DNA from: a bacterium
Lineage (GTDB): Bacteria; Patescibacteriota; Saccharimonadia; CAILAD01; GCA-016700035
Reading direction: 5' to 3'
DNA: 64,000 bases
NCBI GenBank assembly: GCA_016700035.1
Contig: CP064998.1
Location: 199,021 to 263,020, forward strand
A program made the position numbers and the translations under genes. The first letter of the stretch is position 1. Every line of letters starts with the position of its first letter. Below the pieces are notes generated by a model. The model was not told where the DNA came from and did not search any database. It saw only the letters and a list, made by a program, of their open reading frames with translations. This document shows, piece by piece, positions 1 to 38,696 of this stretch.

Positions 1-3062
<3,062 letters not shown>

Positions 3063-16222: not shown

Positions 16223-16346
16223 AACTTTAAATTTTGTATTTAAACTTTTTTATGTTCGTATAACAGGATTAAAAGCTACGCATTTGGTTGTATCGTTCTA
16301 ATGTGTAGCTAAACTTTAACGATATAATATACTTTTGTATGTTGTG

Positions 16347-17866
<1,520 letters not shown>

Positions 17867-18715: not shown

Positions 18716-20167
18716 TTAGAACCCATTGTTATTTGGTTTAATATGGCATAGCCATATTTTTAGGCCAATACCGACCAATCCAAGTAGAAACAGAACATAA
18801 GTCAACGATAAGTATAGTTTAATGTTGTCTCCGGTATCGGCGAGTTGGCCATGAGTGGTGTTTGACACTGGAGGGTCTATAGGGTCTGGGATTGGAGGTA
18901 TATACTCATAAGCGCCAGAATCATAACCTGAGCCTTGTGGCCTGGCTATACCCCGCTGGTCAGTAGTGAGACTATTAGTCACGCCGGCATCAATAGCTGC
19001 AGAGTTTTCTAATAATGCGATCGTTTGGATAGTGCCACCATTGTCTTGTAGTGGACCCAAGCTAGATGATAATCCAACAATCTCAGCCTGATCGGTTGGG
19101 TGATTAAGCTCTGATGTAGCTGTTGCGTCAGTTATATTCCCACCCAAAGAGGCTGAGGTGGCTGATTCAGTGCCTCCAGCGTTAGGCTCAAACTCCGCAT
19201 TAAAAACATCAAGGTTTACACCTAAAATATTTTGGAAATCAATTGATGATGCTGCCGAAGCACCAGGGGTTGCTAAGCTTGCCGACAAGATACCGCTCCC
19301 GGTTACGCCGACTTGAGGGTTGCCAATTATAGTTATATTGCGAGCTGTGACATTTACTTCTCCATCACCACCAGACAAAGAATCGGCAATTGCAGAAATA
19401 TAGCTAATACTATATCCATTTGTAGCTGTCACGTCAGTTATAGTTATATTTTCGGCTAGACCACTAGTATGACCCCCTGCTCGAGAATAGAAGCAAACAA
19501 GTAAAACGGAGTCATTTTTTGTCCCTTCTACATTAGTGATAGTTGTACGCCTAACTATATTGCCAGATGTAGTTGCCCCATTGCTAGTTATAAAAATTGC
19601 ACTACTCTCAAAGATAATATCATGGATATAGATATCTTCTATAGTACTCGAAATACCATTCATCCACGCAGAGACTTCAATCATGGAGCTATCTACAGAT
19701 TGGGCTACATCAGCATAAACCTCGACGCGCCTAATTGTCATGGAGTAATTAAAGGTATTTATTGCGCCGTAGTCATTAATTAATATACTATTCGGATTTT
19801 TAATTGTGACGTCTTGTACGGTAGCTTGTTGAGGGGTAATATTTGGGTTATTGAAACTTAAGCCACCGTTATTACCTTGGGCATCGATGATAGTTTGTCC
19901 CATACCGGCACCCTGTACGGTTAGAGGTACGGTAATTACGTTTGTATTTGCATAGTTGAAAGTACCAGCCGATAAGCTGATAGTATCGTTACTTCCGTAA
20001 GTGCCAGAAGCTGTACACCCACCTTGATTGCTAGCCGAGTTCATGGATAAAATTGCATTATCTAGAGTGCATCCTGGACTCACGTTAATTGTCGCAGCCG
20101 AAGCTTTATTTGGCGCAAAAATAAATGTTATTGATAAGGCTACAATCAATAACAACAAATACTTCAT
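18716..20167 (-). CDS. Secreted beta-helix-like surface protein with LAxTG-type sortase sorting signal
   Basis: Signal peptide MKYLLLLIVALSITFIFAPNKASA (the ORF may start at 20227). Asn/Gly/Thr-rich repeats suggest a parallel beta-helix. C-terminal LADTG, hydrophobic helix and KIWLCHIK tail. Confidence 0.55.
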   Translation of the reverse strand: MKYLLLLIVALSITFIFAPNKASAATINVSPGCTLDNAILSMNSASNQGGCTASGTYGSNDTISLSAGTFNYANTNVITVPLTVQGAGMGQTIIDAQGNNGGLSFNNPNITPQQATVQDVTIKNPNSILINDYGAINTFNYSMTIRRVEVYADVAQSVDSSMIEVSAWMNGISSTIEDIYIHDIIFESSAIFITSNGATTSGNIVRRTTITNVEGTKNDSVLLVCFYSRAGGHTSGLAENITITDVTATNGYSISYISAIADSLSGGDGEVNVTARNITIIGNPQVGVTGSGILSASLATPGASAASSIDFQNILGVNLDVFNAEFEPNAGGTESATSASLGGNITDATATSELNHPTDQAEIVGLSSSLGPLQDNGGTIQTIALLENSAAIDAGVTNSLTTDQRGIARPQGSGYDSGAYEYIPPIPDPIDPPVSNTTHGQLADTGDNIKLYLSLTYVLFLLGLVGIGLKIWLCHIKPNNNGF

Positions 20168-20671
20168 TCTAGGTCGTATTAGAAGAATATGGATTGACAT
20201 CAATATCTTGTTTTCGGCTTTTCTCACGTTATTTATTTTAACATAAGCAAGTTATTTAGATGAAAGAAGCGTGATATATTTATGCAGCATTCTTGTTTAG
20301 CCAAGAATGCTCAAATTAGATTATTGTCGACCCTTTCGGCACTTCTTGGTCGAAAATTTAAGCGGGTTTGATGAGGCGGGGTGGTTTTATCTTTTAAGGT
20401 GAATTACAGAATAGTATATTTTATTATTTACTAATTGTGTATCTATACTCTAGTTGGAGCTTATTTTATATATAATCTTGAAATTTTTCATGGTTAGTTT
20501 TGCCGAGCTATGTACGGCATGAACAATAAAATAAGCTTCCATCATTTGGTGGAGGTTGATAGTCCAATTTAGGGTTAAAAAGTTTTTCTCTCCTTGCCAA
20601 GCTCGCCATTTCAGTGTAAAAATCCAAATCATCGCCCTTCTGGGTGATTTTTTTGTTAAAAATCTCAATCT

Positions 20672-21619: not shown

Positions 21620-22090
21620 ATGCATAATAATCAGCCAATACAGCCTGGATCTTTGGTGCTGCCAAAGTCTGCTTCGAACACAAACGAAGGCGGACAAGGT
21701 GGTGCTTTGCCTGTAATTACGCCGACACCTCAACTAGCAGTTATTGCATCTAATACGCCAACTGTGGATGGTCAGTCGATGGTTAAATTGAGGGGGCAAG
21801 CTGGTTTGAGTATGGATAGCACAAGTGCAGAGACTGGTGGCTTAGATTTTAGTGACACAAAGGTAGTAGATCCAGCTATACTGGCTCAGCCAGCACCAGC
21901 ACCAGCACCAGCACCAGCACCAGCACCAGCACCAGCACCAGCACCAGCACCAGCACCAGCACCAGCACCAGCACCAGCACCAGCACCAGCACCAGCACCA
22001 GCACCAGCACCAGCACCAGCACCAGCACCAGCACCAGCACCAGCACCAGCACCAGCACCAGCACCAGCACCAGCACCAGCATATAGTTAA
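21620..22090 (+). CDS. Pro-Ala dipeptide-repeat protein (hypothetical)
   Basis: ORF ending in (PA)32 encoded by a hexanucleotide microsatellite. No TM or signal. May be the 5' part of a gene split from 22146-22733. Confidence 0.45.
   Translation: MHNNQPIQPGSLVLPKSASNTNEGGQGGALPVITPTPQLAVIASNTPTVDGQSMVKLRGQAGLSMDSTSAETGGLDFSDTKVVDPAILAQPAPAPAPAPAPAPAPAPAPAPAPAPAPAPAPAPAPAPAPAPAPAPAPAPAPAPAPAPAPAPAPAYS
21890..22081 (+). repeat. (CCAGCA)32 perfect tandem hexanucleotide repeat
   Basis: Seen directly. 192 nt with no interruptions. Confidence 0.95.
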
Positions 22091-24837: not shown

Positions 24838-25539
24838 CTATTTGCCAAAACGGCGTTGGCGATGAGAGTATTCAGTTAAGGCAGAGTCTAGATCAGCTTC
24901 GGTAAAATCTGGCCATTTTTTATCGATAAACATAAGTTCGGCATAGGCGGATCGCCAAAGCATAAAGCCAGATATGCGTTGCTCACCAGAGCTACGAATG
25001 AGTAAATCTAGCTCGGGTACATCGGGTGCATAGAGGTATTGAGCAAAAGCTTCTGGTGTAATCGTATTAGCCGCAATGCCAGACGAGATAAGTTTTTTTG
25101 TGGCATCAACTATCTCTTGCTGACCACTATAATTTAAACACAGGGCTAATGTGCCATTGGTATTGTTAGCCGTTTTTTCTTCTGCGTTACGCATAGCGGT
25201 GATGATTTTCGGATCAAGCCCTTCATCATTACCCAGAAAAACTACCCGAACACCTTCACTGTGAATATCTTCAAGCTCATGGTCGGCCACCCATAGCAGA
25301 AGCTTCATAATATAGCTAACTTCTTCGGCTGATCGTTGCCAATTCTCTTTACTCCACACGTAGGCTGAGACATATTTAACGCCACGATCTAGCGCCGCTA
25401 GTCCAATTTTTTTAAAATTCTTATAGCCTTGACGGTGGCCTTCTAGTAGTGGAATACCTTGTTCTTTGGCCCAGCGCCGATGACCATCGAGAATAAAGCC
25501 GACGTGTTGCGGGATTTGATTTTGTGAGATATTTGTCAT
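24838..25539 (-). CDS. uppS: Isoprenyl transferase (undecaprenyl diphosphate synthase)
   Basis: HVGFILDGHRRWAKE (cis-IPPS substrate-binding motif). Conserved C-terminal RRFGK. Confidence 0.85.
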   Translation of the reverse strand: MTNISQNQIPQHVGFILDGHRRWAKEQGIPLLEGHRQGYKNFKKIGLAALDRGVKYVSAYVWSKENWQRSAEEVSYIMKLLLWVADHELEDIHSEGVRVVFLGNDEGLDPKIITAMRNAEEKTANNTNGTLALCLNYSGQQEIVDATKKLISSGIAANTITPEAFAQYLYAPDVPELDLLIRSSGEQRISGFMLWRSAYAELMFIDKKWPDFTEADLDSALTEYSHRQRRFGK

Positions 25540-25660
25540 AATTTAAGTATCCATTATAGCTTATTTCAGGTAAGAATAAAGCTAAAGAAAAGATATGGAC
25601 AAATATATGCAAGGGAGTCTATTATTAAGCATAAGTATTAATTGAGATAATATAGTAATT

Positions 25661-27463
25661 ATGCCAACTAAAAAAAAGAGCACAAAAATGAAAGTAAAAC
25701 CTAAGTCTACATCTAAAGTAGCCAAAAGTAGAAGCGCCCAAGGTGTTTTGTCGTCTAATAAGTTTAATGTTGTAATCGCCGGTATTGCCCTATTGCTAAT
25801 TGCTGTGGTGGGTATTTTTGTTTATTTTGCATCGAGGGCCGGGACCTCAACTTATCAATATAATGCAACTACTGGAGTACATACTGGGCGCTTATTTTCT
25901 GACGATAGTCCTCTTAACCAGACTATTCCTGGTGATGTTCGCTATGCGGCTGATGGCCAGACTCGTATTCAAACTGCAGGAGTTCCCGCAGCATTCTCCT
26001 TGCTGACTTGGTCGATACCGATTTTTCAAGCCGATGCCACTACGCCTAAGGCTAATATTTGGTGTTATCAGACGGATATTCAAGCTCCATGGGATACTTG
26101 TCATGGGATAAATACTAGTCCTCAGCCAGTGCCACAGGGTATGTTTGCTCAGAAGGGTGGCGATGGGCATGTGACAGTTATTGATACTTCGACTAGAAAA
26201 ATATACAGCTACTGGATATGGAAGGATTGCACTCTGCAGTTTAGTCTCAATAATGCTAAATGGTGCCCAGCTACTGGCAATATGGCGTCAATTGACGGTA
26301 ATGGCGTAGGAGGTGGTACAAATGTAGCTGGGTTAGCTGGCGGAATAATCCGAACACACGAGATTGAACGAGGGAATATTGACCACGCACTGACTTTCTC
26401 TACTAGTACGACTTGTAAGCGAGACCCTATCTATCCAGCCCTCTATAGTGATGGCACAAACGCCAATCAGGCAACATGTATGCCGATTGGCGCTCGGTTT
26501 CAGCTTGATCCCAGTATTAATGTAGATACTCTGCCAAATATTACCCCAATGGAAAAAACTATTGCTAAAGCACTGCAAAAATATGGAGCCTATGTAGACG
26601 ATACCGGTGGAATATTTGGCTTTGTCATTGAGCTTGATCGAACAGGTAGGAAAGTTTATCAGAAAGCTGGTGCTCCAGACCATGATTATTTCCCTATGAA
26701 AGCCATACCTTGGGATAAGTTTAAGATGCTTGAACCACAGTGGAATAAAGATGGCTCCAAAGCTTATGCCTGGACAGGGCCACAAATTACCACCCCCTCC
26801 CCAACTCCACCCACCACCACCGTTACCCCTAGCCCCACACCAACTCCTGGTAATAAAGCACCAGTAGGTCCAGCTAGTCTCTCTGCTTCAGTCATCTCTA
26901 GCACACAAATCAATCTGACTTGGCCAGTAGCCACCGACGATAGTACAGGGACCCTCAACTACACCGTGACTCGTAATGACAAACAAATCTACTCTGGCCC
27001 TAAGCTATCCTTCTCCGACACCGGCCTAACTCCAGCTACTAAATATAACTATAAAGTTACAGCTAAGGATGTAGGTGGTCTTGTATCCACTGGTGCAACT
27101 ACCTCTGCTACCACCCAAGCATCCCCCACCACTCCACCCCCGCCAACCACCGACACCACCAAACCTTCAGTACCCGGTAATGTTAAAAGTAAGATAGAGT
27201 TCGATGGTCTAAAGTTTGCTTATTACACTAATCTAACTTGGACTGCATCTTACGATAACGTAGGTGTAACAAGCTATGAAGTAAGACGTAATAACACAAG
27301 TCTTGGCACTACTACCACTACTAACTTCAAAGACTACAATCTCCAACCCAATATCCTCTACAGCTACGACATCTATGCTAAAGATGCAGCTACTAACTCA
27401 TCTCTACCAGCTAACACCAAGCTCACTGGTCGTTGCTTCATCATCTGGTGTTGGGGGGAGTAG
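25661..27463 (+). CDS. Signal-anchored surface protein A: unknown ~330-aa domain plus two FN3-like modules and CFIIWCWGE tail
   Basis: Lys-rich N-terminus with a TM helix. Cys-containing central domain of unknown function. Thr/Pro linkers. FN3-like modules identical to those of the gene at 33936. Confidence 0.65.
   Translation: MPTKKKSTKMKVKPKSTSKVAKSRSAQGVLSSNKFNVVIAGIALLLIAVVGIFVYFASRAGTSTYQYNATTGVHTGRLFSDDSPLNQTIPGDVRYAADGQTRIQTAGVPAAFSLLTWSIPIFQADATTPKANIWCYQTDIQAPWDTCHGINTSPQPVPQGMFAQKGGDGHVTVIDTSTRKIYSYWIWKDCTLQFSLNNAKWCPATGNMASIDGNGVGGGTNVAGLAGGIIRTHEIERGNIDHALTFSTSTTCKRDPIYPALYSDGTNANQATCMPIGARFQLDPSINVDTLPNITPMEKTIAKALQKYGAYVDDTGGIFGFVIELDRTGRKVYQKAGAPDHDYFPMKAIPWDKFKMLEPQWNKDGSKAYAWTGPQITTPSPTPPTTTVTPSPTPTPGNKAPVGPASLSASVISSTQINLTWPVATDDSTGTLNYTVTRNDKQIYSGPKLSFSDTGLTPATKYNYKVTAKDVGGLVSTGATTSATTQASPTTPPPPTTDTTKPSVPGNVKSKIEFDGLKFAYYTNLTWTASYDNVGVTSYEVRRNNTSLGTTTTTNFKDYNLQPNILYSYDIYAKDAATNSSLPANTKLTGRCFIIWCWGE
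26790..27463 (+). repeat. Copy 1 of ~675-bp FN3-cassette repeat (apparently identical to 35011-35685)
   Basis: No differences found on visual alignment except one extra A in the other copy. Confidence 0.85.
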
Positions 27464-27513
27464 TAACCGCTAGGTTTACCTTTAACACCCTAAATTCTCG
27501 ATAGTAAAAGGTA

Positions 27514-27543
27514 TTGACCCATAACGCATGGGCATGATACGCT
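27514..27543 (+). promoter_or_regulatory. Candidate 23S promoter (-35 TTGACC)
   Basis: TTGACC about 280 nt upstream of the 23S 5' end. The -10 is poor. A related TTGACC-N18-TAAAAT lies downstream of the paralogous copy at ~35737. Confidence 0.25.
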
Positions 27544-27798
27544 ATTGAGGCACTAAAGCGAGGACAGCCACACGTGAGTAGACAACAAAACCTAGGAGAA
27601 ACCACCGGTTAATCAGAGTTTGTTGGAATTTCACGCGTGGTTGTCTCCGGTAGATACCACGCTTTTTTGTATCGAACGTTCACAACTTCATACTTACGAG
27701 AAAAAAGGGTAACAAATATTGCTTTCTTTCTTAGGGATGATTAGACAAAGCTTGTAAGAGGTGTGTCAATCACTCTCTTATAAAAAAGAGAAGAAAAA

Positions 27799-30985
<3,187 letters not shown>

Positions 30986-31174
30986 TTCGTGGTTTACTTG
31001 ATCATTTTTTGTGATTAGGTAAACCGATTTTTGACAAGATGAGTGCTTGGCACGCTTTTTACAAGCTAAAAATCTCTAAGAAATCTTTAAAGAAAGCAAA
31101 GTGCCTTTAATCGTAAGTATGAATGACTTCCATTGTGAGCGTCGGTCTTTCGGGCTTTAGAGCTTGAGAGACCG

Positions 31175-31283
31175 GTGCTTATGGCGGAGGGGCCACACCT
31201 GTTCCCATACCGAACACAGCAGTTAAGCCCTCCTGCGGCGATGATACTGGTAACCCCGGGAAAGTAGCGCAGTGCCGGATTGG
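31175..31283 (+). rRNA. rrf: 5S ribosomal RNA
   Basis: GCTTATGGCGGAGGGGCCACACCTGTTCCCATACCGAACACAG...GGGAAAGTAGCGCAGTGCC. Confidence 0.85.
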
Positions 31284-31290
31284 AATTATT

Positions 31291-31324
31291 AAAAGCCGCC
31301 TATTTTTATAAATGGGTGGCTTTT
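31291..31324 (+). terminator. Putative rrn terminator hairpin followed by a T-run
   Basis: GCCGCC...GGTGGC stem with one G-U, then TTTT. Confidence 0.35.
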
Positions 31325-31384
31325 GTTGACACATACAATCATTAGGGTTTATGCTTAATATATACTTAATAAAGAGATGTTCTC

Positions 31385-33856
31385 ATGTCTGTTCAAAAAA
31401 AGAAAATAACACCAAAAAATAAACCTAAAACCAGAGTCAAGAAAACCGCTTCCAGCAATTCAATAAAGTATACTTATAAATTTAGCAATCCCATAGTCCT
31501 TGGAGTAGTTGCGATATTGATTGTTGTGTCGGCAGTATATCTGTATATTACCTATGCTGGATCGGCACGTTATGAGGCTTTGCAGCCGATTAAGAAAAGT
31601 ACAACAGCTGGTGCAGTCTTGCCGATTATCTACAATGCAACATCCCTAACTGGTACGGTGCGTTATGCTTCTCCATCCGGTTCTAATACTTCAGCCTGCA
31701 TAGCTAGTGACCCATGCACGTTGGCACGTGCGGTGAGCCAGGTAAGTACTGCTAATAGTACGATTATCCTAGCTGGCGGTACGTATCGCAATCAAGCCAA
31801 TATTACTATTAGTGGTAGTGGGCGCAATGGTTTGAAACTTATAGCTGCATCCGGCCAAATACCAGAAATTCGTGGCTCAGTGGAGGTGAATGGTGGCTGG
31901 AATACAGAGGCTGGCTACAAATATATTTCATATACCCCTCGAGCGATTGAGGAAGGTATGGGGGTAGCATTTGATGATGAGAAAAATATGATGAACCTCA
32001 ATAGTAGTGAAGGTCGATATGCCGACCAGGTTTGGATAGGCAATAAGGCACTTAAGCAGATTCTAGATAAGTCGGCTTTGAAGGATGGTCAATTCTATGT
32101 TGATAGGGCTAATCGTCGACTCTACCTTACTGCTAATGATGCATCAAAATCATCAATTGAAACCTCACGACCCGGTGATGGAACGACTAATCCACGTGAT
32201 CGTTTATTCTCAATTTCTTCCACAGGCGTCACCCTAGAAGGGATTCGTATGAATCGCTATTCTGCCAATGGCGATGATTATGGTGTAGTTTTAGTTAATG
32301 ATGGTGCGCATAATTTTACTATGAAGAACTCAGAACTATCCGACGCACCGTATGAAGGTGTGCATGTTGGTCAGGTGGATAATCCAACTTTTAAGAATGT
32401 TACTATACACGATGTAGCTTGGACATCAATAGGGGTTAATCAATCGGATAAGTTGCTATTAGATCAAGTTAAAATAACCAATACAGATCCATTTGATGAG
32501 TTTTCTAGCTCACCGGTTAGTGGTGCATTGAAAACGAGTCGAACACGTGATTCTAAAGTTATTCAGAGTTATATTGGTGGCAATAAGTCGCATGGCTTAT
32601 GGTTTGATCAAAGCAATATTAATGTGGTAGTTGATAAGAACTTTATGAAGGATAATACTGGCGCAAGTGTTTTCTTTGAGATTTCAGATGGACTTACAAT
32701 GACAAATAATTTTGTAGCCACCACAAATGGTCAGCCCATCAAGATGGCTGGGTCATCTGGTTTGCGTTTGGTTAATAATACATTGGTTGGAGGTCATGAC
32801 CCAGTTGGAGTATATATGGATAACCGTTCGACACCGGGTTGTGCATCTAATATTAACTTATGTAAATCATCTTCCTACGCCAGCGATCGTCAAGGTCGGT
32901 TTGCACCATATATTGGCTCTACGATGGACTGGATGCCTAGAATTGATGTGATGGTGAATAATATTATTGCGTATCCAAGTAGTCTGTCTAGCATGTGCGG
33001 CAAAACAGCCACGGTTGGAGTTTGTATTACTACTAGCTGGGGGTCCGGTGCCCAACTTGCTACTACAACGCTTGATGCTATTATTCATAAAGCGGATACC
33101 ACACGTAATATTCCTCAGACTATCATTAGCGGTAATGTGTATGCTAATGGTACTTCTCGAATTATTCGAGCTGGTTCGCAGGATTATACGAGTGCGTCTA
33201 CATGGAGCTCAGCACTTGCTGGTCCTCCGGTTAATATTACTGGATTAGATGCAAATGCTAAGGTGGGCAATAGCTGGGTAAATACCGATGGTACGGGAAC
33301 CGATAGCTTGATCAATGCTAGCGCTCAGGCCTATAAGATACCAGTATTTACTGGCTCAAATGCTATTATTAACACCTACATACCAGCCGGTACGCAGCAG
33401 TATGGAGTACTGAGTAGTGCGGTGAATCCATCTACAACTGTATCGCCTACAACTACTCCTCCATCATCTACTCCAACACCGACAACCACTACTACGGTGA
33501 AGCCATCACCTACCACGCCGGTAACTCCACCCCCGCCAACCACCGACACCACCAAACCTTCAGTACCCGGTAATGTTAAAAGTAAGATAGAGTTCGATGG
33601 TCTAAAGTTTGCTTATTACACTAATCTAACTTGGACTGCATCTTACGATAACGTAGGTGTAACAAGCTATGAAGTAAGACGCAATAACACAAGTATTGGT
33701 ACTTCTACTACCACTAACTTCAAAGACTACAATCTCCAACCCAATATTCTCTATAGCTATGACATCTACGCTAAAGATGCAGCTACCAACTCATCTCTAC
33801 CAGCTAACACCAAGCTCACTGGTCGTTGCTTCATCATCTGGTGTTGGGGGGAGTAG
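31385..33856 (+). CDS. Signal-anchored surface protein B: right-handed beta-helix (pectate-lyase-like) domain plus FN3 module and CFIIWCWGE tail
   Basis: Lys-rich N-terminus with a TM helix. Repeated N/G/T-rich beta-helix turns (NVTIHDVAWTSIGVNQSDKLLLDQVKITNT). C-terminal ~110 aa about 97% identical at nt level to the other copies. Confidence 0.6.
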   Translation: MSVQKKKITPKNKPKTRVKKTASSNSIKYTYKFSNPIVLGVVAILIVVSAVYLYITYAGSARYEALQPIKKSTTAGAVLPIIYNATSLTGTVRYASPSGSNTSACIASDPCTLARAVSQVSTANSTIILAGGTYRNQANITISGSGRNGLKLIAASGQIPEIRGSVEVNGGWNTEAGYKYISYTPRAIEEGMGVAFDDEKNMMNLNSSEGRYADQVWIGNKALKQILDKSALKDGQFYVDRANRRLYLTANDASKSSIETSRPGDGTTNPRDRLFSISSTGVTLEGIRMNRYSANGDDYGVVLVNDGAHNFTMKNSELSDAPYEGVHVGQVDNPTFKNVTIHDVAWTSIGVNQSDKLLLDQVKITNTDPFDEFSSSPVSGALKTSRTRDSKVIQSYIGGNKSHGLWFDQSNINVVVDKNFMKDNTGASVFFEISDGLTMTNNFVATTNGQPIKMAGSSGLRLVNNTLVGGHDPVGVYMDNRSTPGCASNINLCKSSSYASDRQGRFAPYIGSTMDWMPRIDVMVNNIIAYPSSLSSMCGKTATVGVCITTSWGSGAQLATTTLDAIIHKADTTRNIPQTIISGNVYANGTSRIIRAGSQDYTSASTWSSALAGPPVNITGLDANAKVGNSWVNTDGTGTDSLINASAQAYKIPVFTGSNAIINTYIPAGTQQYGVLSSAVNPSTTVSPTTTPPSSTPTPTTTTTVKPSPTTPVTPPPPTTDTTKPSVPGNVKSKIEFDGLKFAYYTNLTWTASYDNVGVTSYEVRRNNTSIGTSTTTNFKDYNLQPNILYSYDIYAKDAATNSSLPANTKLTGRCFIIWCWGE
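33524..33856 (+). repeat. Copy 2 (diverged, ~10 substitutions) of the terminal FN3 cassette
   Basis: Aligns to 27131-27463 with mostly synonymous changes. Confidence 0.8.
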
Positions 33857-33935
33857 AGGATTTGACGAATCTTAATAAAACCCTTAAGCTTAAACTAACT
33901 CACAAGTATTAATACAAAAAGGATCATTAAATACC

Positions 33936-35685
33936 ATGTCGGCTACTAAGAAACGAAATCAATCTAAGTCTAGAGGATCTAGCGCTAAGACCGCTAAGAC
34001 TTCGAGTAGAGTATCTACAGTAAAGAATATTAATCTAGGTATTTTGGCAATTGTGGCGGGTGCGGTAATTTTAATTGGTGGCCTTTATGCACTGCTGGCT
34101 TGGGCGGCAACACCTGGTGTTGGTAGTTATCCGGCAATTGCTACTATTCCGCGTCTTGCCCCTTACACTAGTTTTTGGTGGCAGTTGGAAAACGCTCCAA
34201 AAGTTGATGCACTAGTTACCGAAGCTAACCCTAAAAAACATTATGATTTTGACTACGAAGATGTAACTAGCGCACAAATCGCAACCATGAAGTCTCAGAA
34301 TGCATTGGTAACTTGCTACTTTGAAGTTGGGACAGCGGCTCAGTGGCGCCCAGATTATAATAAATTTCCAGCCTCAGCAGTTTCAGCAACTGACCCACAG
34401 AACTGGGGTGATGAGCGCTGGATAGATATTATGAATCCAACAGTACGAAGTATTATGGCGGGGCGGATGGATGTTTCAAAAGAGAAAGGCTGTCAAGGGA
34501 TAGAGCCAGATTGGCTAGACAACTATACCTACAGCCAAGCTGAGTATGATGCTTCTGGAAAAGTGAAAGTACCGACTAAAGCACAACAATTAGATTATAT
34601 GAAGTTTTTGGCTGATGAAGCTCATAAGCGAGGCATGATGATTGCCTTAAAGAATGTACCGGAGCTAGCTCGTGAGAAATTTGCTGACGGACGAGTGGTA
34701 GCGGACGTGTATGACTGGGCATTAATTGAAGAGTGTCTCGTTTCTTATAAGGATACTTGCCCAAACCTGAAGGCCTTTATTGAGCGTGGTAAGAATGTGG
34801 CGGTTGCAGAATACAATGATCAGGTAGCACAGGCTAAATTTACTGATACTTTCTGCCCTCAGTTCAATACCTGGAATTTTGATGGATATCTGTTTGATCG
34901 CAAGAATGGTGGTAGTCCAACCTTGACCGGAAAATTTCGTGTACCATGTCGTACTGGAGAGGGGCAGCCCATAGGACCCACCCCAACGGTAACTGTATTC
35001 CCGGGCACCTCCACCCCCTCCCCAACTCCACCCACCACCACCGTTACCCCTAGCCCCACACCAACTCCTGGTAATAAAGCACCAGTAGGTCCAGCTAGTC
35101 TCTCTGCTTCAGTCATCTCTAGCACACAAATCAATCTGACTTGGCCAGTAGCCACCGACGATAGTACAGGGACCCTCAACTACACCGTGACTCGTAATGA
35201 CAAACAAATCTACTCTGGCCCTAAGCTATCCTTCTCCGACACCGGCCTAACTCCAGCTACTAAATATAACTATAAAGTTACAGCTAAGGATGTAGGTGGT
35301 CTTGTATCCACTGGTGCAACTACCTCTGCTACCACCCAAGCATCCCCCACCACTCCACCCCCGCCAACCACCGACACCACCAAACCTTCAGTACCCGGTA
35401 ATGTTAAAAAGTAAGATAGAGTTCGATGGTCTAAAGTTTGCTTATTACACTAATCTAACTTGGACTGCATCTTACGATAACGTAGGTGTAACAAGCTATG
35501 AAGTAAGACGTAATAACACAAGTCTTGGCACTACTACCACTACTAACTTCAAAGACTACAATCTCCAACCCAATATCCTCTACAGCTACGACATCTATGC
35601 TAAAGATGCAGCTACTAACTCATCTCTACCAGCTAACACCAAGCTCACTGGTCGTTGCTTCATCATCTGGTGTTGGGGGGAGTAG
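33936..35685 (+). pseudogene. Signal-anchored surface protein C with GH114-like TIM-barrel domain, disrupted by +1 frameshift in an A-run
   Basis: N-terminal K-rich anchor. FWWQL...GCQGIEPDWLDNY resembles the glycoside hydrolase family 114 fold. A5 at 35406-35410 against A4 in the two paralogs shifts the frame. The ORF continues as 35296-35685. Confidence 0.6.
35011..35685 (+). repeat. Copy 3 of the ~675-bp FN3-cassette repeat
   Basis: Identical to 26790-27463 apart from one extra A. Confidence 0.85.
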
Positions 35686-35892
35686 AGCAGTACTTAGACT
35701 TATCTTGATACTCTGAACTCTTGATAGGAAAAAGTATTGACCTATAGTGGTTTATTGTACTTAAAATATTTGAGCATTTTACCCGAGGCACGGTTAAGGG
35801 TTACTGGCCGGCTTCAGTTTTGTGGATAAAATTGATTTTTTTTTTGCACCATGAGAAGATAAACACAAGGGTAATTAAAAGGAATACTAAAA

Positions 35893-36726
35893 ATGTCAGA
35901 GGTAGGTCGATGGACACCGGAGGATAGTCAGGCACTAAATAGTGAAAGCTACGCCGCAAGAAAACCGGCTCAGGATAAATGGGATGAGTTGAATAAGTCA
36001 GCTGTGAGTGAGGGGGTGGCTACTGAGCTGCCATATGTTGTAGATGGAGGTAGGGAAATATCTTATACGGAAGCCTTAAATGAAATTCAACGTCGACAGG
36101 ACACTGTAAATGAATACACCGAACTAGAACAGGCTAGCTTAGCTCGTGGTGAAGGGGAGTCATCCATATTGCCACACCTAAAATACAAGCTTAAAGCCAT
36201 TCAAGAGCCTCTGGAGCGAGCACGCAGTTGGGCGTCACGTCTTCAGGAGGCGCGAGCTCGTGGAGTGGAAATTCCGGAAAAATTTTCTACCGCCGAGCAG
36301 ATTATGTATCATGAATCTAAATTGGAAGAGTATAAGAAGCAGAGAGACAATGTTGCGCTTTGTATACTGGAATTTCGTGGAGCCGACGAAAATCAAGACG
36401 CGAGAGCCGTACATAGCGCCCTCGCGCATTTGCCGGAAGTGAATGAGATGGGTGGCATTGACTGGGAAGGACTGAAGCACTGGGTAACCCATCTTCAGAG
36501 GCATGGTAGGCCGGAAGGAGATCAAGCACAAGCAGTACTTGATAAGGCTTATCCAGGTGGTGAGCTCTACAATGCCCGCATTGAGTACTATCGTGATTTG
36601 GTAGAAATTAATGAGATTTTGCAGCCGGTGCGTGAGAGGATAATCGCACGCTATGAAGAGGAACTACGTGACTTTATTGAAAAAACTAGTGATCTGCCAG
36701 ATGGAGCTCAGGAAATTACTACATAG
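35893..36726 (+). CDS. Hypothetical acidic protein
   Basis: 277-aa ORF with RBS-like AAAAGGAATA upstream. No recognised motifs. Confidence 0.4.
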   Translation: MSEVGRWTPEDSQALNSESYAARKPAQDKWDELNKSAVSEGVATELPYVVDGGREISYTEALNEIQRRQDTVNEYTELEQASLARGEGESSILPHLKYKLKAIQEPLERARSWASRLQEARARGVEIPEKFSTAEQIMYHESKLEEYKKQRDNVALCILEFRGADENQDARAVHSALAHLPEVNEMGGIDWEGLKHWVTHLQRHGRPEGDQAQAVLDKAYPGGELYNARIEYYRDLVEINEILQPVRERIIARYEEELRDFIEKTSDLPDGAQEITT

Positions 36727-36918
36727 GTTGCGTATTGGCACTGAGGTATGTATTGGTCGTCAAAAAGCATTGAGGCCTAGTAATATTAGTCGAGCTATAG
36801 TCAGTGTGCCAGCATCTTTTTAAGAATGCGCTTAGATCAGCTTGACTGACCTGCTATTGTTCTACTGTCTGGCGCTATAGAAAGCAAGGGATTTGACGAA
36901 AAACTTTGAGTCAAAGCA

Positions 36919-36947
36919 TTGACAGAATAAGCATAAGCTGATAGAAT
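36919..36947 (+). promoter_or_regulatory. Near-consensus sigma70 promoter TTGACA-N17-TAGAAT
   Basis: Seen directly. Would yield a ~140-nt structured leader before the ATG at 37092. Confidence 0.45.
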
Positions 36948-37091
36948 ACAGAGCATTACCACTTCGGTAGTCACTTCAAAGTGTTTGAGGGTCTACCGGA
37001 GTGGTTTTAGAAAAAGAGTATTAGTGCTGACTGTGGAGGGTCAGCTCGAGCGCTAGCTACTCACTTGAAAGTAATTATCAAGGAGAACGCT

Positions 37092-37283
37092 ATGCCAGGA
37101 ACAGTTGCTGGTGGCCGTAAGGCTGCTGATACTAACCGCAAGCGCTACGGTAAGACGTTTTACGTCCGTATCGGTGCACTCGGTGGTAAGAAAAGCACAG
37201 GTGGTGGTTTTGCCGCTAACCCAGAACTTGCTCGTGAAGCAGGTCGTAAGGGTGGGCAGGCTCGTAAGAAAAAGCAGGCTTAG
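37092..37283 (+). CDS. KGG-repeat stress-induced protein (general stress protein-like)
   Basis: GGKKSTGGGFAAN...GRKGGQARKKK repeats. Strong RBS AAGGAG 8 nt upstream. The listed ORF start at 37065 is less likely. Confidence 0.6.
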   Translation: MPGTVAGGRKAADTNRKRYGKTFYVRIGALGGKKSTGGGFAANPELAREAGRKGGQARKKKQA

Positions 37284-37311
37284 AGCTTACTAACTTAGGA
37301 GTATAACCTCA

Positions 37312-37353
37312 CAACACAATAGTCCCCGTATTTTTTACGGGGACTATTGTGTT
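37312..37353. terminator. Bidirectional terminator between convergent genes (17-bp perfect stem, TTTTT loop)
   Basis: ACACAATAGTCCCCGTAtttttTACGGGGACTATTGTGT. Confidence 0.65.
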
Positions 37354-37831
37354 AATCGGTGAGTTTTATGTGGCGAATGCGTGGCTCAGTACCTTCTGCG
37401 ATGTGCCAGCGAGTTTGGCAGACAAAACAGCGATAAGTAGATTTATCTTCTTGGAGAGAAAAATTTGTACAGGCAGGGCAAGTACTGCGCTCTTCCACCC
37501 AGTGTCCGTAGCTGGCCAGACAACTCTGAATAAAATGATCAGAACAAGCAATATTATAGTGATGAGCTAAGTTGCGGGTTTTCATCCAAGCCTGAGATTC
37601 CATAGCGAATAGTTCAAAGTCGGTACGAAAATCAAAGTGGGCTAGTTCAGCATGAGAAATTTCATGTAATAGGCTGATGATACCTCGATTGGTATCCAGG
37701 CAAGTTGAGTCAAAATATATACATTCACTAGCAGAATCAAAATAGAAGTCACTATCTTCTATAAAATGATACGATGAGAAATCCTGCATAATTTGCTGGC
37801 TGACCGTATGTAGCTTCACCCCCATAGGCAT
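37352..37831 (-). CDS. SprT-like zinc metallopeptidase family protein
   Basis: HEISH (HExxH) motif. C-terminal Cys-rich zinc ribbon (CPAC...CFVCQ). ~160 aa. Confidence 0.45.
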   Translation of the reverse strand: MPMGVKLHTVSQQIMQDFSSYHFIEDSDFYFDSASECIYFDSTCLDTNRGIISLLHEISHAELAHFDFRTDFELFAMESQAWMKTRNLAHHYNIACSDHFIQSCLASYGHWVEERSTCPACTNFSLQEDKSTYRCFVCQTRWHIAEGTEPRIRHIKLTD

Positions 37832-37844
37832 ATCATAGCATTTT

Positions 37845-38696
37845 TTAGTGTTGGTGGATGGCGTGAGCTAGTAGACCAGCTCCGATGAGGGGAGCGGTTT
37901 CAATATGTTTGGCGGGCTTAATTGGTGGAAGTGGGAATTTTGGAGAATAGGCTAATTCTGCGAGATGTTTAGTGAGTGGGGGTAAAAACTTTTTATGATG
38001 TTTAGAAACTCCACCACCCAATACGACAATTTCAGGATTTGTGGCAACAATAAGGTTATGTAGGCCTTGGGCTAGTGGTCGGGTGATTTCATGCCAGGCT
38101 TTCTTAGATCTAATATCGGCTGCAATTTTGCCATATTCTCGCACAATAGCCTTGCCACTAGCTAGGTACTCAAAACTACCGTAGAGAGGGTTGCGAACGT
38201 GATCAACGAGGATCATTTGGCCACCTTGAGGGTTATATGGTCCGGGGAGTGGCTTACCATCTAGGATGAGCGCTGAGCCGATGCCAGTAGAAATGGTCAC
38301 GTAGAGAATATAGCGATATTTCTGTCCGCTACCTATCATGGCTTCGCAAACACCTCCCAATGTAGCATCATTTTCAAGTATGATTGGGGTATTAAATTCT
38401 TGGTGTAATTTGGCTACAATGGGGAGTTTTTTCCAGGTTGGGATGTGGGTACAGGGTCCGATAGTGCCGTGTTTGCGATCAACTTTTGCCGGGGCGGCAA
38501 TACCAATTGCTAGTGGTTCAGCCGGGCCAGTAAGAGTCTGGATGGTAGAAATTGTCTGTTTTATCATAGCGGTTTCACTGGCAGGAGTAGGAAAATCTAT
38601 AAACTGAGAAATTTTTCCATAGCCATTAATGCAACCGATGCGTACTTTTGTACCACCAATATCGATTGCGATAACTTCTTTTTTCATGCGTTCCAT
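37845..38696 (-). CDS. ROK-family sugar kinase (glucokinase-like)
   Basis: N-terminal ATP-binding motif IAIDIGGTKVRIG. ROK-like Gly-rich core. Confidence 0.75.
   Translation of the reverse strand: MERMKKEVIAIDIGGTKVRIGCINGYGKISQFIDFPTPASETAMIKQTISTIQTLTGPAEPLAIGIAAPAKVDRKHGTIGPCTHIPTWKKLPIVAKLHQEFNTPIILENDATLGGVCEAMIGSGQKYRYILYVTISTGIGSALILDGKPLPGPYNPQGGQMILVDHVRNPLYGSFEYLASGKAIVREYGKIAADIRSKKAWHEITRPLAQGLHNLIVATNPEIVVLGGGVSKHHKKFLPPLTKHLAELAYSPKFPLPPIKPAKHIETAPLIGAGLLAHAIHQH

What the first reader, a model, noticed from the sequence alone, without database searches (positions are those of the whole stretch)
25661..35685. Family of signal-anchored surface enzymes with a shared FN3 cassette and an identical Cys/Trp-rich C-terminal tail (LTGRCFIIWCWGE)
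Three genes (25661, 31385, 33936) share the same architecture. Each has a 25-35 aa Lys-rich cytoplasmic N-terminus and one TM helix (type II signal anchor rather than a cleavable signal peptide). Each has a different catalytic-looking domain: an unknown Cys-containing ~330-aa domain, a pectate-lyase-like parallel beta-helix, and a GH114-like TIM barrel. Thr/Pro linkers follow, then one or two FN3 modules, then the invariant 13-aa terminus KLTGRCFIIWCWGE. The repeat boundary coincides with the stop codon. The tail is too short for a TM helix and is not LPXTG, PEP-CTERM or GlyGly-CTERM. It may be an unrecognised C-terminal sorting, lipidation or docking tag. Polysaccharide-degrading domains on the surface of a probable epibiont suggest attack on host exopolysaccharide or cell wall (inference).
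Basis: partly seen in the sequence, partly recalled or inferred. Interest (0 to 1): 0.7.

Follow-up and report, generated by a model that had tools for sequence, protein, structure and literature searches.

The report
Cysteine-tryptophan tail tag on secreted enzymes
Three neighbouring genes for exported polysaccharide- or cell-wall-cutting enzymes end in the same short cysteine/tryptophan tail, and the same tail core also ends many unrelated exported proteins in related tiny bacteria and in abundant ocean archaea, so it looks like an undescribed tag, probably for holding proteins at the cell surface.

Summary
Gene 3 is split in this assembly by one extra A at 35406-35410; other strains carry it intact. 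GH114 (Ega3-like), right-handed beta-helix and FN3 are confirmed. The gene 1 domain folds confidently but has no significant solved-structure match.

The tail is not confined to three recent duplicates. Sixteen of the 18 closest homologues of the gene 1 domain (46-73% identical) end in a two-Cys aromatic tail. In species-representative genomes, CF[LI][IV]WCWxE occurs about 24 times in Saccharibacteria/Patescibacteria MAGs. It always sits at the exact end of 300-1011-aa exported proteins, on GH16, GH26, GH114, beta-helix and unknown domains, with synonymous codon variation.

The core CFLFWCW-stop also ends at least 64 long signal-peptide proteins in metagenomes. Two of these contigs are attributed to marine Nitrosopumilaceae archaea and three others are bacterial.

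No Pfam or NCBIfam model and no paper matched. The tail lacks the transmembrane helix and basic end of known C-terminal sorting signals.

Best reading (inferred, about 0.45): an ultrashort surface-retention tag, either a disulfide-closed Cys-x4-Cys aromatic knob or a lipidated Cys motif. This would be a new variant of a known kind.

The parts
25661..27463 (+). Gene 1 (600 aa). Order of parts: K-rich N-terminus, one hydrophobic helix, uncharacterised catalytic domain of about 320 aa, PT linker, FN3, PT linker, FN3, tail.
   Evidence: ORF. fn3. AlphaFold2 model with mean pLDDT 83.8, helix at aa 37-59 and two FN3 sandwiches. NCBI record QQS27151.1.
25661..25837 (+). Export signal of gene 1. The n-region (aa 1-35) is rich in Lys. 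The hydrophobic segment (aa 36-57) is followed by S-R-A|G, a possible signal peptidase I site.
   Evidence: Sequence. Helix H37-59. The same small-x-small motif follows the hydrophobic segment in paralogues and orthologues.
25838..26794 (+). Catalytic-looking domain of gene 1. It belongs to a family with no Pfam entry. It contains three local Cys pairs and nearly invariant D168, D175, E234, H242, D264 and D314.
26790..27463 (+). Cassette copy 1: PT linker, FN3, PT linker, FN3, tail, stop.
   Evidence: Direct repeat families D1 and D2. Alignment.
27434..27460 (+). Tail core CFIIWCWGE. The stop codon TAG is at 27461-27463.
31385..33856 (+). Gene 2 (823 aa). Order of parts: K-rich N-terminus, hydrophobic helix, right-handed beta-helix enzyme, PT linker, one FN3, tail.
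   Evidence: ORF. Beta_helix 1.5e-16 and NosD 4.1e-7. NCBI record QQS27152.1.
32288..32785 (+). Beta_helix (PF13229) match, aa 302-467 of gene 2.
33490..33856 (+). Cassette copy 2: the end of the PT linker, the last FN3 and the tail. It is about 96% identical to copy 1, and most of the differences are synonymous.
33827..33853 (+). Tail core CFIIWCWGE of gene 2.
33936..35685 (+). Gene 3: a GH114 enzyme followed by two FN3 domains and the tail. In this assembly it is split into ORFs 33936-35414 and 35296-35685.
   Evidence: Intact orthologues of 582-584 aa exist.
34173..34901 (+). GH114 TIM-barrel domain (aa 80-322), similar to Ega3.
   Evidence: Pfam 1.5e-50. PDB 6oj1 endo-alpha-1,4-polygalactosaminidase, 6.3e-25.
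35406..35410 (+). A5 homopolymer carrying one extra A. This is the frameshift that splits gene 3.
   Evidence: Alignment of the three cassette copies. Removing one A restores a 582-aa protein.
35011..35685 (+). Cassette copy 3. It is identical to copy 1 except for the extra A.
35656..35682 (+). Tail core CFIIWCWGE of gene 3.

Best explanation
The 13-residue terminus is the local form of a short, autonomous C-terminal tag. Its core is a basic residue followed by Cys-Phe-(Leu/Ile)-(Ile/Val/Phe)-Trp-Cys-Trp. The protein ends either at that Trp or two residues later (x-Glu).

In this Saccharibacteria lineage the tag travels with an FN3 spacer as a cassette. Recombination moves the cassette among Sec-exported enzymes that cut polysaccharides or cell wall.

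Proposed mechanism:
1. The enzyme is exported through its N-terminal signal. This step is shown only as sequence features.
2. The two tail cysteines close a six-residue Cys-x4-Cys ring. This step is inferred.
3. The ring presents a compact Phe/Leu/Ile/Trp knob, flanked by a positive charge on one side and by the C-terminal carboxylate(s) on the other.
4. The knob buries in the interfacial zone of the cell's own membrane or envelope. This holds the enzyme at the surface on its FN3/PT-rich stalk instead of letting it diffuse away. This step is inferred.

A variant within the same reading is that one or both Cys are lipidated.
For: All of the points below are shown by tool results.

Position
- The motif is always the extreme C-terminus. 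All of about 24 Saccharibacteria/Patescibacteria matches in species-representative genomes lie 0 residues from the stop of 300-1011-aa ORFs. Matches in other taxa fall in junk ORFs.
- In a control scan of viral contigs, none of 120 core-pattern matches ends a long ORF.

Modularity
- The tag sits on GH114, GH16, GH26, at least two beta-helix types, the gene 1 family and unknown domains.
- There are several copies per genome, often in tandem.

Selection on the peptide
- Cys, Leu, Ile, Arg, Gly, Glu and stop codons vary synonymously while the residues stay fixed.
- The tail is the most conserved block of the module.

Independent, unbiased sample
- The sample is the 18 closest homologues of the gene 1 catalytic domain (46-73% identical), chosen without reference to the tail.
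- 16 of these 18 end in a two-Cys aromatic tail: CF..WCWxE..CF..[WYSA]CW, or C[ST]WY[GS][IV]C[RHK].

Autonomy from FN3
- At least 64 metagenomic ORFs of 100 aa or more end in (K/Q)(F/T/S)CFLFWCW-stop after E/K-rich or P/T-rich linkers.
- The complete ones begin with classical signal peptides, and they carry NHL, cupredoxin, metzincin, Ig-like and FN3 domains.
- One of these proteins clusters with a Candidatus Nitrosopelagicus protein. The HemA gene on another contig clusters with Nitrosopumilaceae, and that contig also carries an archaeal-type proteasome-assembly chaperone gene.
- Other contigs are bacterial, with RpoD, DnaG, MreC or enolase as neighbours.

Physical chemistry
- On the Wimley-White interfacial scale, CFIIWCW scores -5.9 and CFLFWCW -7.0 kcal/mol.
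- Only 0.024% of 7-mers in the window's proteins score as low as CFIIWCW.

Cysteine parity
- Each window protein has 8 Cys: three local pairs in the catalytic domain plus the two in the tail.
- Cys counts are even in 12 of 13 Saccharibacteria proteins and in 28 of 35 CW-stop proteins. Four of the latter have only the two tail Cys.

Other points
- AlphaFold2 does not pack the tail onto the FN3 domain: the last 10 residues have pLDDT of about 56.
- Related domain families elsewhere carry PEP-CTERM or MYXO-CTERM anchors (NCBIfam names).
Against: - No experiment and no localisation data exist. The disulfide and the membrane insertion are both inferred.
- Seven to nine residues make a weak anchor compared with a transmembrane helix. 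The Saccharibacteria form ends in Glu, which lowers the interfacial score to about -3.9 kcal/mol.
- If the N-terminal helix is not cleaved, the proteins are already anchored and a second anchor would be redundant.
- In the Saccharibacteria form there is no flexible linker between the FN3 domain and the tail.
- Archaeal and bacterial membranes differ greatly. A shared passive mechanism is plausible, but it is not required by the data.
- The archaeal set was found by searching for the motif itself. The two groups could therefore share the motif by convergence.
- Some array neighbours with the same kind of N-terminus have no tail.
Confidence: 0.45

Rival explanations
1. The tail is a recognition signal for a dedicated processing enzyme. 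The Cys residues would be lipidated or covalently attached, possibly with trimming of the last residues. This would work like MYXO-CTERM with myxosortase or PGF-CTERM with archaeosortase, but without the transmembrane and basic parts. The N-terminal signal or anchor could hold the protein at the membrane until it is modified.
For: - The two Cys are invariant and close together, as in MYXO-CTERM, where Cys lipidation followed by cleavage distal to the last Cys is proposed (Haft 2023).
- The motif is very sharply conserved: C, W, C, W are invariant across both domains of life. This fits enzyme recognition better than generic hydrophobicity does.
- The tag is restricted to certain lineages and occurs on many paralogues.
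- The Saccharibacteria form places a Cys at position -4 (C-W-x-E), which is the geometry of a CaaX box.
Against: - No candidate enzyme lies next to the tail genes in the window or in 14 related loci. The neighbours are syntenic housekeeping genes: UppS, ROK, S1, IF-2 and rRNA.
- No NCBIfam sorting-signal model matches.
- No known prokaryotic system works without the transmembrane segment.
- The final Cys is at -4 in one group and at -2 in the others.
Confidence: 0.25
2. The tail is a docking or oligomerisation tag. It would bind a scaffold (S-layer, another surface protein, or Pro-rich linkers) or form intermolecular disulfides. This would assemble enzymes into surface complexes, as dockerin-cohesin does, or as the aromatic Cys-containing C-terminal peptide of acetylcholinesterase does when it binds a proline-rich anchor.
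For: - The tail has a free C-terminal position, aromatic residues and two Cys.
- Several different enzymes in one genome carry the same tag.
- Pro/Thr-rich linkers are present in the same proteins.
- AlphaFold2 leaves the tail unpacked, so it is available for binding in trans.
Against: - No partner was identified.
- The archaeal versions have E/K-rich linkers rather than Pro-rich ones.
- Four proteins have only the two tail Cys, and overall even Cys counts are equally consistent with an intramolecular bond.
Confidence: 0.15
3. The tail has no separate function. It would be a structural cap of a lineage-specific FN3 variant, looking conserved only because the cassette was recently duplicated and homogenised by gene conversion.
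For: - Within this window the cassette copies are 96-100% identical at the DNA level.
- In Saccharibacteria the tail always follows an FN3 G-strand directly.
Against: - The tail persists in FN3 modules only 23-50% identical to the window's, and the tail varies less than the FN3 does.
- Codons differ synonymously between genomes.
- The same core follows flexible linkers with no FN3 in archaeal and bacterial proteins.
- AlphaFold2 does not pack the tail on the domain.
Confidence: 0.05
4. The element is conserved at the DNA level (a terminator, a recombination site or an assembly artefact) rather than as a peptide.
For: The repeat ends exactly at the stop codon.
Against: - Third-position variation is extensive while amino acids stay constant. 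Leu uses all six codons in the CW-stop set, Cys uses TGC and TGT, and the stop is TAA or TAG.
- The motif is found in independent assemblies from NCBI, JGI, ENA and Logan.
Confidence: 0.01

Closest known systems
[quoted passage not shown]
   Same: - Located at the extreme C-terminus of Sec-exported proteins, with many paralogues.
- One or two invariant, closely spaced Cys.
- Restricted to certain lineages.
- Placed after linkers.
- Found on the same kinds of domains, such as NHL/ScyF-like, metalloprotease and thrombospondin-type repeats.
   Different: - There is no transmembrane-length hydrophobic segment and no Arg/Lys cluster after the motif. Only 0-2 residues follow Cys-Trp.
- The tail is 7-9 residues long, against at least 20 for the shortest known signal.
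- No HMM match.
- No cognate protease identified.
LPXTG/LAXTG sortase signals
   Same: Both are C-terminal surface-display signals of monoderm bacteria. The same window encodes proteins with such signals: LPQTG plus a transmembrane segment plus basic residues at the end of 7568-9133, and LADTG plus a transmembrane segment at the end of 18716-20227(-). A sortase gene lies near a tail gene in a relative.
   Different: The motif is entirely different and there is no membrane-spanning segment. The tail is therefore a second, distinct C-terminal system in the same organism.
Eukaryotic CaaX / CXC / CC prenylation boxes preceded by a polybasic stretch (Ras, Rab)
   Same: Both have Cys within four residues of the C-terminus with basic residues just upstream. 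Both would give peripheral membrane attachment from a very short C-terminal element.
   Different: - CaaX boxes act on cytosolic proteins, whereas these proteins carry export signals.
- The residues after the Cys are Trp-x-Glu or Trp alone, not aliphatic-aliphatic-X.
- The Cys is at -2 in many members.
- No prokaryotic protein prenyltransferase is known for such a motif (my own knowledge).
Small C-terminal disulfide rings (oxytocin/vasopressin Cys-x4-Cys plus a 3-residue tail; the 'Rana box' of frog antimicrobial peptides)
   Same: Same ring size (Cys-x4-Cys), followed by 1-3 residues. This shows that such a ring is sterically feasible. The Rana box sits at the C-terminus of membrane-active peptides (my own knowledge).
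   Different: The molecules are unrelated. Here the ring would be almost purely aromatic and aliphatic, and it is attached to large enzymes. The disulfide has not been demonstrated.
Ega3-type GH114 endo-alpha-1,4-polygalactosaminidase; right-handed beta-helix polysaccharide enzymes; bacterial FN3 spacer modules of chitinases and cellulases
   Same: - The gene 3 catalytic domain matches Pfam GH114 and PDB 6oj1.
- Gene 2 matches PF13229.
- The FN3 domains resemble chitinase A1 and CbhB FN3 modules.
   Different: These enzyme families are not known to carry this tail. The substrate of each enzyme here is untested.

Membership tests
Tripartite prokaryotic C-terminal sorting signals (sortase, exosortase, archaeosortase, rhombosortase and myxosortase substrates) | A short signature motif near the C-terminus, recurring on many exported paralogues | tested here: met
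   The motif lies at the exact C-terminus of 3 window genes, about 24 genes in Saccharibacteria MAGs and at least 64 metagenomic ORFs.
Tripartite prokaryotic C-terminal sorting signals (sortase, exosortase, archaeosortase, rhombosortase and myxosortase substrates) | A hydrophobic segment long enough to span the membrane, following the motif | tested here: not met
   Only 0-2 residues follow Cys-Trp, and the whole hydrophobic run is 7 residues.
Tripartite prokaryotic C-terminal sorting signals (sortase, exosortase, archaeosortase, rhombosortase and myxosortase substrates) | A cluster of basic residues at the extreme C-terminus | tested here: not met
   The proteins end in Trp or in x-Glu. The basic residue lies before the motif, not after it.
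Tripartite prokaryotic C-terminal sorting signals (sortase, exosortase, archaeosortase, rhombosortase and myxosortase substrates) | A match to a curated sorting-signal HMM | tested here: not met
   NCBIfam scans of the window proteins, of the cassette alone and of 9 CW-stop proteins gave no sorting-domain hit.
Tripartite prokaryotic C-terminal sorting signals (sortase, exosortase, archaeosortase, rhombosortase and myxosortase substrates) | A cognate sorting enzyme that co-occurs across genomes | not testable with these tools
   Whole-genome phylogenetic profiling was not possible. No candidate was seen among neighbours.
CaaX-type prenylation box | Cys at position -4 followed by two aliphatic residues, on a cytosolic protein | tested here: not met
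   Cys is at -4 only in the x-Glu form and at -2 elsewhere. The following residues are Trp and Gly/Ala/Ser. The proteins carry N-terminal export signals.
Fibronectin type III domain (PF00041) | A Pfam match above the gathering score, and a beta-sandwich fold | tested here: met
Glycoside hydrolase family 114 | A Pfam PF03537 match above the gathering score, and similarity to a characterised member | tested here: met
   172 bits against a cut-off of 27. PDB 6oj1 (Ega3), 6.3e-25. Catalytic activity was not tested.
   Only the generic Beta_helix and NosD families match. There is no PDB sequence match at E <= 0.01. The beta-helix fold family itself is met.
MltA / double-psi beta-barrel lytic transglycosylases (considered for the gene 1 domain) | Significant fold or sequence similarity | tested here: inconclusive
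Cleavable Sec signal peptide (versus uncleaved signal anchor) | n-h-c regions with small residues at -3 and -1 | tested here: inconclusive
   A conserved S/T-R/Q-A-(A/G/S) or A-x-A motif follows the hydrophobic segment in many paralogues. However, the hydrophobic segment is about 22 residues long and no predictor was available.

The most novel reading that the evidence does not exclude
C-Phi-Phi-Phi-W-C-W (with an optional x-E) is the first non-tripartite, ultrashort prokaryotic C-terminal anchoring signal. It would be shared by Patescibacteria (Saccharibacteria) and by marine ammonia-oxidising archaea (Nitrosopumilaceae). It would be serviced by a still unknown Cys-modifying or Cys-recognising machinery that defines a large part of their surface proteomes.
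Probability: 0.3. Interest if true: 0.85.

Novelty: new variant of a known kind. Interest (0 to 1): 0.75.

Why it matters
- Saccharibacteria live on other bacteria, and marine Nitrosopumilaceae are among the most numerous cells in the ocean. In both, how exported enzymes, copper proteins and proteases are kept at the cell surface is poorly understood.
- A 7-9-residue tag that marks such proteins would let surface proteomes be predicted directly from sequence.
- The tag would point to an anchoring chemistry outside the sortase, exosortase and myxosortase scheme.
- It would make a concrete question testable: what happens to this C-terminal peptide after export?
- For this window, it shows that the epibiont's polysaccharide and cell-wall enzymes are built by shuffling one FN3-plus-tag cassette within a syntenic hot spot.

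Tried and rejected
- The search for homologous proteins with the 99-aa cassette and with a 24-sequence cassette profile returned only short proteins of 94-173 aa. This appears to be a limit of the tool, so it gave no census of tail-bearing proteins.
- The exhaustive representative search with the cassette was swamped by giant multi-FN3 proteins. Only P0250 (976 aa) carried the tail.
- The afdb50 fold library was unavailable.
- I looked for a processing enzyme near the tail genes. Pfam on about 30 window ORFs and ORF maps of 14 related loci showed only housekeeping neighbours.
- Literature searches for the motif strings and for Cys-containing sorting signals in Saccharibacteria found nothing on this tail.
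- An exact look-up of bacterial neighbour proteins, meant to name the organisms with P/T-linker tails, failed. Only one archaeal HemA was found.
- I considered and rejected a DNA-level element (codon variation), stop-codon read-through (the sequences diverge right after the stop) and chance (control scan).

Full report
**1. What is in the window**

The region lies in a small-genome bacterium. The NCBI proteins are QQS27151-54, labelled '[bacterium]', locus tag IPM44_, on a 916,044-bp contig. Near-identical proteins occur in MAGs named Candidatus Saccharibacteria bacterium.

Gene 1 (25661-27463) and gene 2 (31385-33856) are intact. 23S and 5S rRNA genes lie between them, at 27794-30987 and 31171-31280.

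Gene 3 starts at 33936 but stops at 35414. Its last FN3 and the tail continue in another frame (ORF 35296-35685). Aligning the three cassette copies shows one extra A in an A-run at 35406-35410. Orthologues from other assemblies are intact at 582-584 aa and end in the tail. The split is therefore an assembly error in a homopolymer or a very recent lesion.

The cassette is repeated at the DNA level:
- Genes 1 and 3 share about 670 nt (PT linker, FN3, PT linker, FN3, tail) at 100% identity apart from the extra A.
- Gene 2 shares the last 370 nt or so at 96%.
- Similarity stops at the stop codon.

**2. Domains**

- Pfam confirms fn3, Beta_helix/NosD in gene 2 and GH114 in gene 3.
- The GH114 domain matches solved Ega3 endo-alpha-1,4-polygalactosaminidase (6oj1, 6.3e-25).
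- Gene 2 has no sequence match in the PDB. 'Pectate-lyase-like' therefore holds only as a fold family.
- The gene 1 domain has 95 homologues, none with a Pfam annotation over it. It folds confidently (pLDDT 91.5) but has no significant solved-structure match.
  - Foldseek found nothing.
  - In a relative, the homologue follows Ddl, a Mur ligase and a C39-like peptidase. This hints weakly at a peptidoglycan substrate.
- Each of the three proteins has eight Cys: three local pairs in the catalytic domain plus two in the tail.

**3. The N-terminus**

All three proteins have a K/R-rich stretch of about 35 residues and a hydrophobic helix of about 22 residues.

In paralogues and orthologues with unrelated catalytic domains, the helix is followed by a conserved small-x-small motif: SRA|G, GSA|R, AWA|A, TRAA|T, SQA|T. 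This resembles a signal peptidase I site, so 'uncleaved anchor' is not established.

Array neighbours with the same N-terminus but no tail exist. The N-terminus is therefore the lineage's general export signal, and the FN3-plus-tail cassette is an optional module.

**4. Is the tail only a recent duplicate? No.**

(a) *Unbiased sample.* The sample is the 18 closest homologues of the gene 1 catalytic domain (46-73% identical), chosen without reference to the tail. Of these, 16 end in a two-Cys aromatic tail; the other two stop right after the catalytic domain.
- Six end in C[FA]xx[WY]CW plus two residues: x-E in five and L-L in one.
- Four end in ..GCFxx[WSAY]CW.
- Six carry a different last domain and end in C[ST]WY[GS][IV]C[RHK].

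(b) *Genome scan.* A back-translated pattern for CF-h-h-WCWxE was scanned over one genome per prokaryotic species and gave 67 stretches.
- All of about 24 matches in Saccharibacteria/Patescibacteria MAGs lie exactly at the end of 300-1011-aa ORFs, after an FN3 domain.
- Matches in other taxa lie in short junk ORFs.
- The exceptions are two contig-edge fragments and one 888-aa FG-GAP protein ending ...KKTCFLLWCW after a linker.

(c) *Hosts of the tag.* The tagged proteins carry GH16, GH26, GH114, several beta-helix types, the gene 1 family and unknown domains. There are 3-5 per genome, often in tandem.

(d) *Codon variation.* Codons for Cys, Leu, Ile, Arg, Gly, Glu and stop vary synonymously. 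The tail columns are the least variable block of the module.

(e) *Locus.* The arrays sit in a syntenic hot spot between UppS and ROK/S1/IF-2, and the gene content of the array differs between genomes.

**5. The core is much more widespread**

At least 64 matches end ORFs of 100-1036 aa.
- 52 of the 64 read CFLFWCW.
- They are preceded by (K/Q)(F/T/S) and by E/K-rich or P/T-rich linkers.
- Leu uses all six codons and Cys uses both.

The complete ORFs start with classical signal peptides, and the contigs have 31-37% G+C. The proteins carry NHL, cupredoxin, metzincin, Ig-like, thrombospondin-type and FN3 domains.

Taxonomic evidence:
- One protein clusters with MBT4327770.1 from Candidatus Nitrosopelagicus.
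- On another contig (L146), the neighbouring HemA clusters with Nitrosopumilaceae proteins, and an archaeal-type proteasome-assembly chaperone gene lies nearby.
- Other contigs (42-43% G+C, P/T linkers) are bacterial, with RpoD, DnaG, MreC or enolase as neighbours.
- One of those bacterial contigs has a tandem neighbour ending KHCFWIFCF.

As a control, 120 matches to the bare 21-nt core in viral contigs include none at the end of a long ORF.

**6. Known or not**

- No Pfam or NCBIfam model covers the tail.
- Full-text searches for the motif strings found nothing.
- Known C-terminal sorting signals are tripartite (motif, transmembrane helix, basic cluster). The shortest is 20 residues.
- This tail has neither a transmembrane segment nor a basic end.
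- The same window encodes canonical sortase-type signals on other proteins: LPQTG at the end of 7568-9133 and LADTG at the end of 18716-20227 on the minus strand. The tail is therefore a separate system.

**7. Mechanism (inferred)**

The heptapeptide is about as interface-seeking as a peptide of that length can be. It scores -5.9 to -7.0 kcal/mol on the Wimley-White scale, and only 0.024% of 7-mers in the window's proteins reach -5.9. It is flanked by a basic residue upstream and by the terminal carboxylate(s) downstream.

Cys counts are even in 12 of 13 Saccharibacteria proteins and in 28 of 35 CW-stop proteins. Four of the latter have only the two tail Cys. This fits a Cys-x4-Cys disulfide ring, the size seen in oxytocin (my own knowledge).

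AlphaFold2 leaves the tail unpacked at pLDDT of about 56.

My confidences for the readings:

| Reading | Confidence |
|---|---|
| Surface-retention knob that partitions into the membrane or envelope | 0.45 |
| Enzyme-processed or lipidated sorting signal | 0.25 |
| Docking or oligomerisation tag | 0.15 |
| Mere structural cap of the FN3 domain | 0.05 |
| DNA-level element | 0.01 |

None of these has been tested experimentally.

**8. Verdict**

The tail is one lineage's form of a conserved, selected, modular C-terminal tag found in both Bacteria and Archaea, and it appears to be undescribed. Its function is unproven. The cross-domain link rests on a motif-directed search, so convergence cannot be excluded.

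Noticed in passing
window 35406-35410: An extra A in an A-run splits the GH114 gene into two ORFs. Other strains have the gene intact (582-584 aa). This is either a homopolymer assembly error or a very recent frameshift.
   Followed up: yes
window 237-3062 (+): The phenylalanyl-tRNA synthetase beta chain (941 aa) carries a Pfam NlpC/P60 match (1.7e-11) at aa 447-521, inserted between the B3_4 and B5 domains. This is an odd place for a cell-wall peptidase domain.
   Followed up: no
window 16344-17864, 27794-30987, 31171-31280: 16S is unlinked from 23S-5S by about 10 kb. The gap contains tRNA-Ile and tRNA-Ala on the opposite strand, plus protein genes including gene 1. The 23S match spans 3194 nt against a 2925-position model, so it may carry an insertion.
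   Followed up: no
window 7568-9133 (+) and 18716-20227 (-): Two other surface proteins end in canonical sortase-type signals: LPQTG plus a transmembrane segment plus basic residues, and LADTG plus a transmembrane segment. The organism therefore uses at least two different kinds of C-terminal signal.
   Followed up: partly
window 25838-26794 (gene 1 domain): This is a confidently folded domain family (pLDDT 91.5) with no Pfam entry and no significant solved-structure match. There is only a weak but consistent resemblance to MltA-type lytic transglycosylases, and the homologue has peptidoglycan-synthesis neighbours in a relative.
   Followed up: partly
P0019-P0025 (homologues of gene 1); L188 10001-11548: A second tail type, C[ST]WY[GS][IV]C[RHK] (Cys-x5-Cys), ends orthologues whose last domain is not the FN3 domain.
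   Followed up: partly
L098 2-1156 and 1190-4300: In a bacterial contig, two tandem genes end in KHCFWIFCF and KRCFLFWCW after P/T-rich linkers. This suggests a broader motif, C-h-h-h-aromatic-C-aromatic.
   Followed up: partly
window 24838-38696, and loci L026, L038, L059, L061, L062: The tail-gene array occupies a syntenic hot spot between UppS and a 157-aa ORF/ROK/S1/IF-2. Its content differs between genomes: GH114, GH16, two beta-helix types, the gene 1 type.
   Followed up: partly
window 21620-22090 (+); L062 2-838: This ORF ends in a long perfect (Ala-Pro)n repeat. The same feature is seen in a related genome.
   Followed up: no
downstream of tail genes, e.g. window 33857-33935; L026, L038, L059, L061: Conserved promoter-like sequences follow the stop codons in several genomes, for example CTTGACTCAAAAGCATTGACAGA and GGATTTGAC...CTTAAGCTTAAAC.
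   Followed up: no
P0013 (cluster member of gene 3): One metagenomic variant has lost the stop codon and extends the tail by 13 residues (...CWGEQGSIQTYLDTLNS).
   Followed up: no
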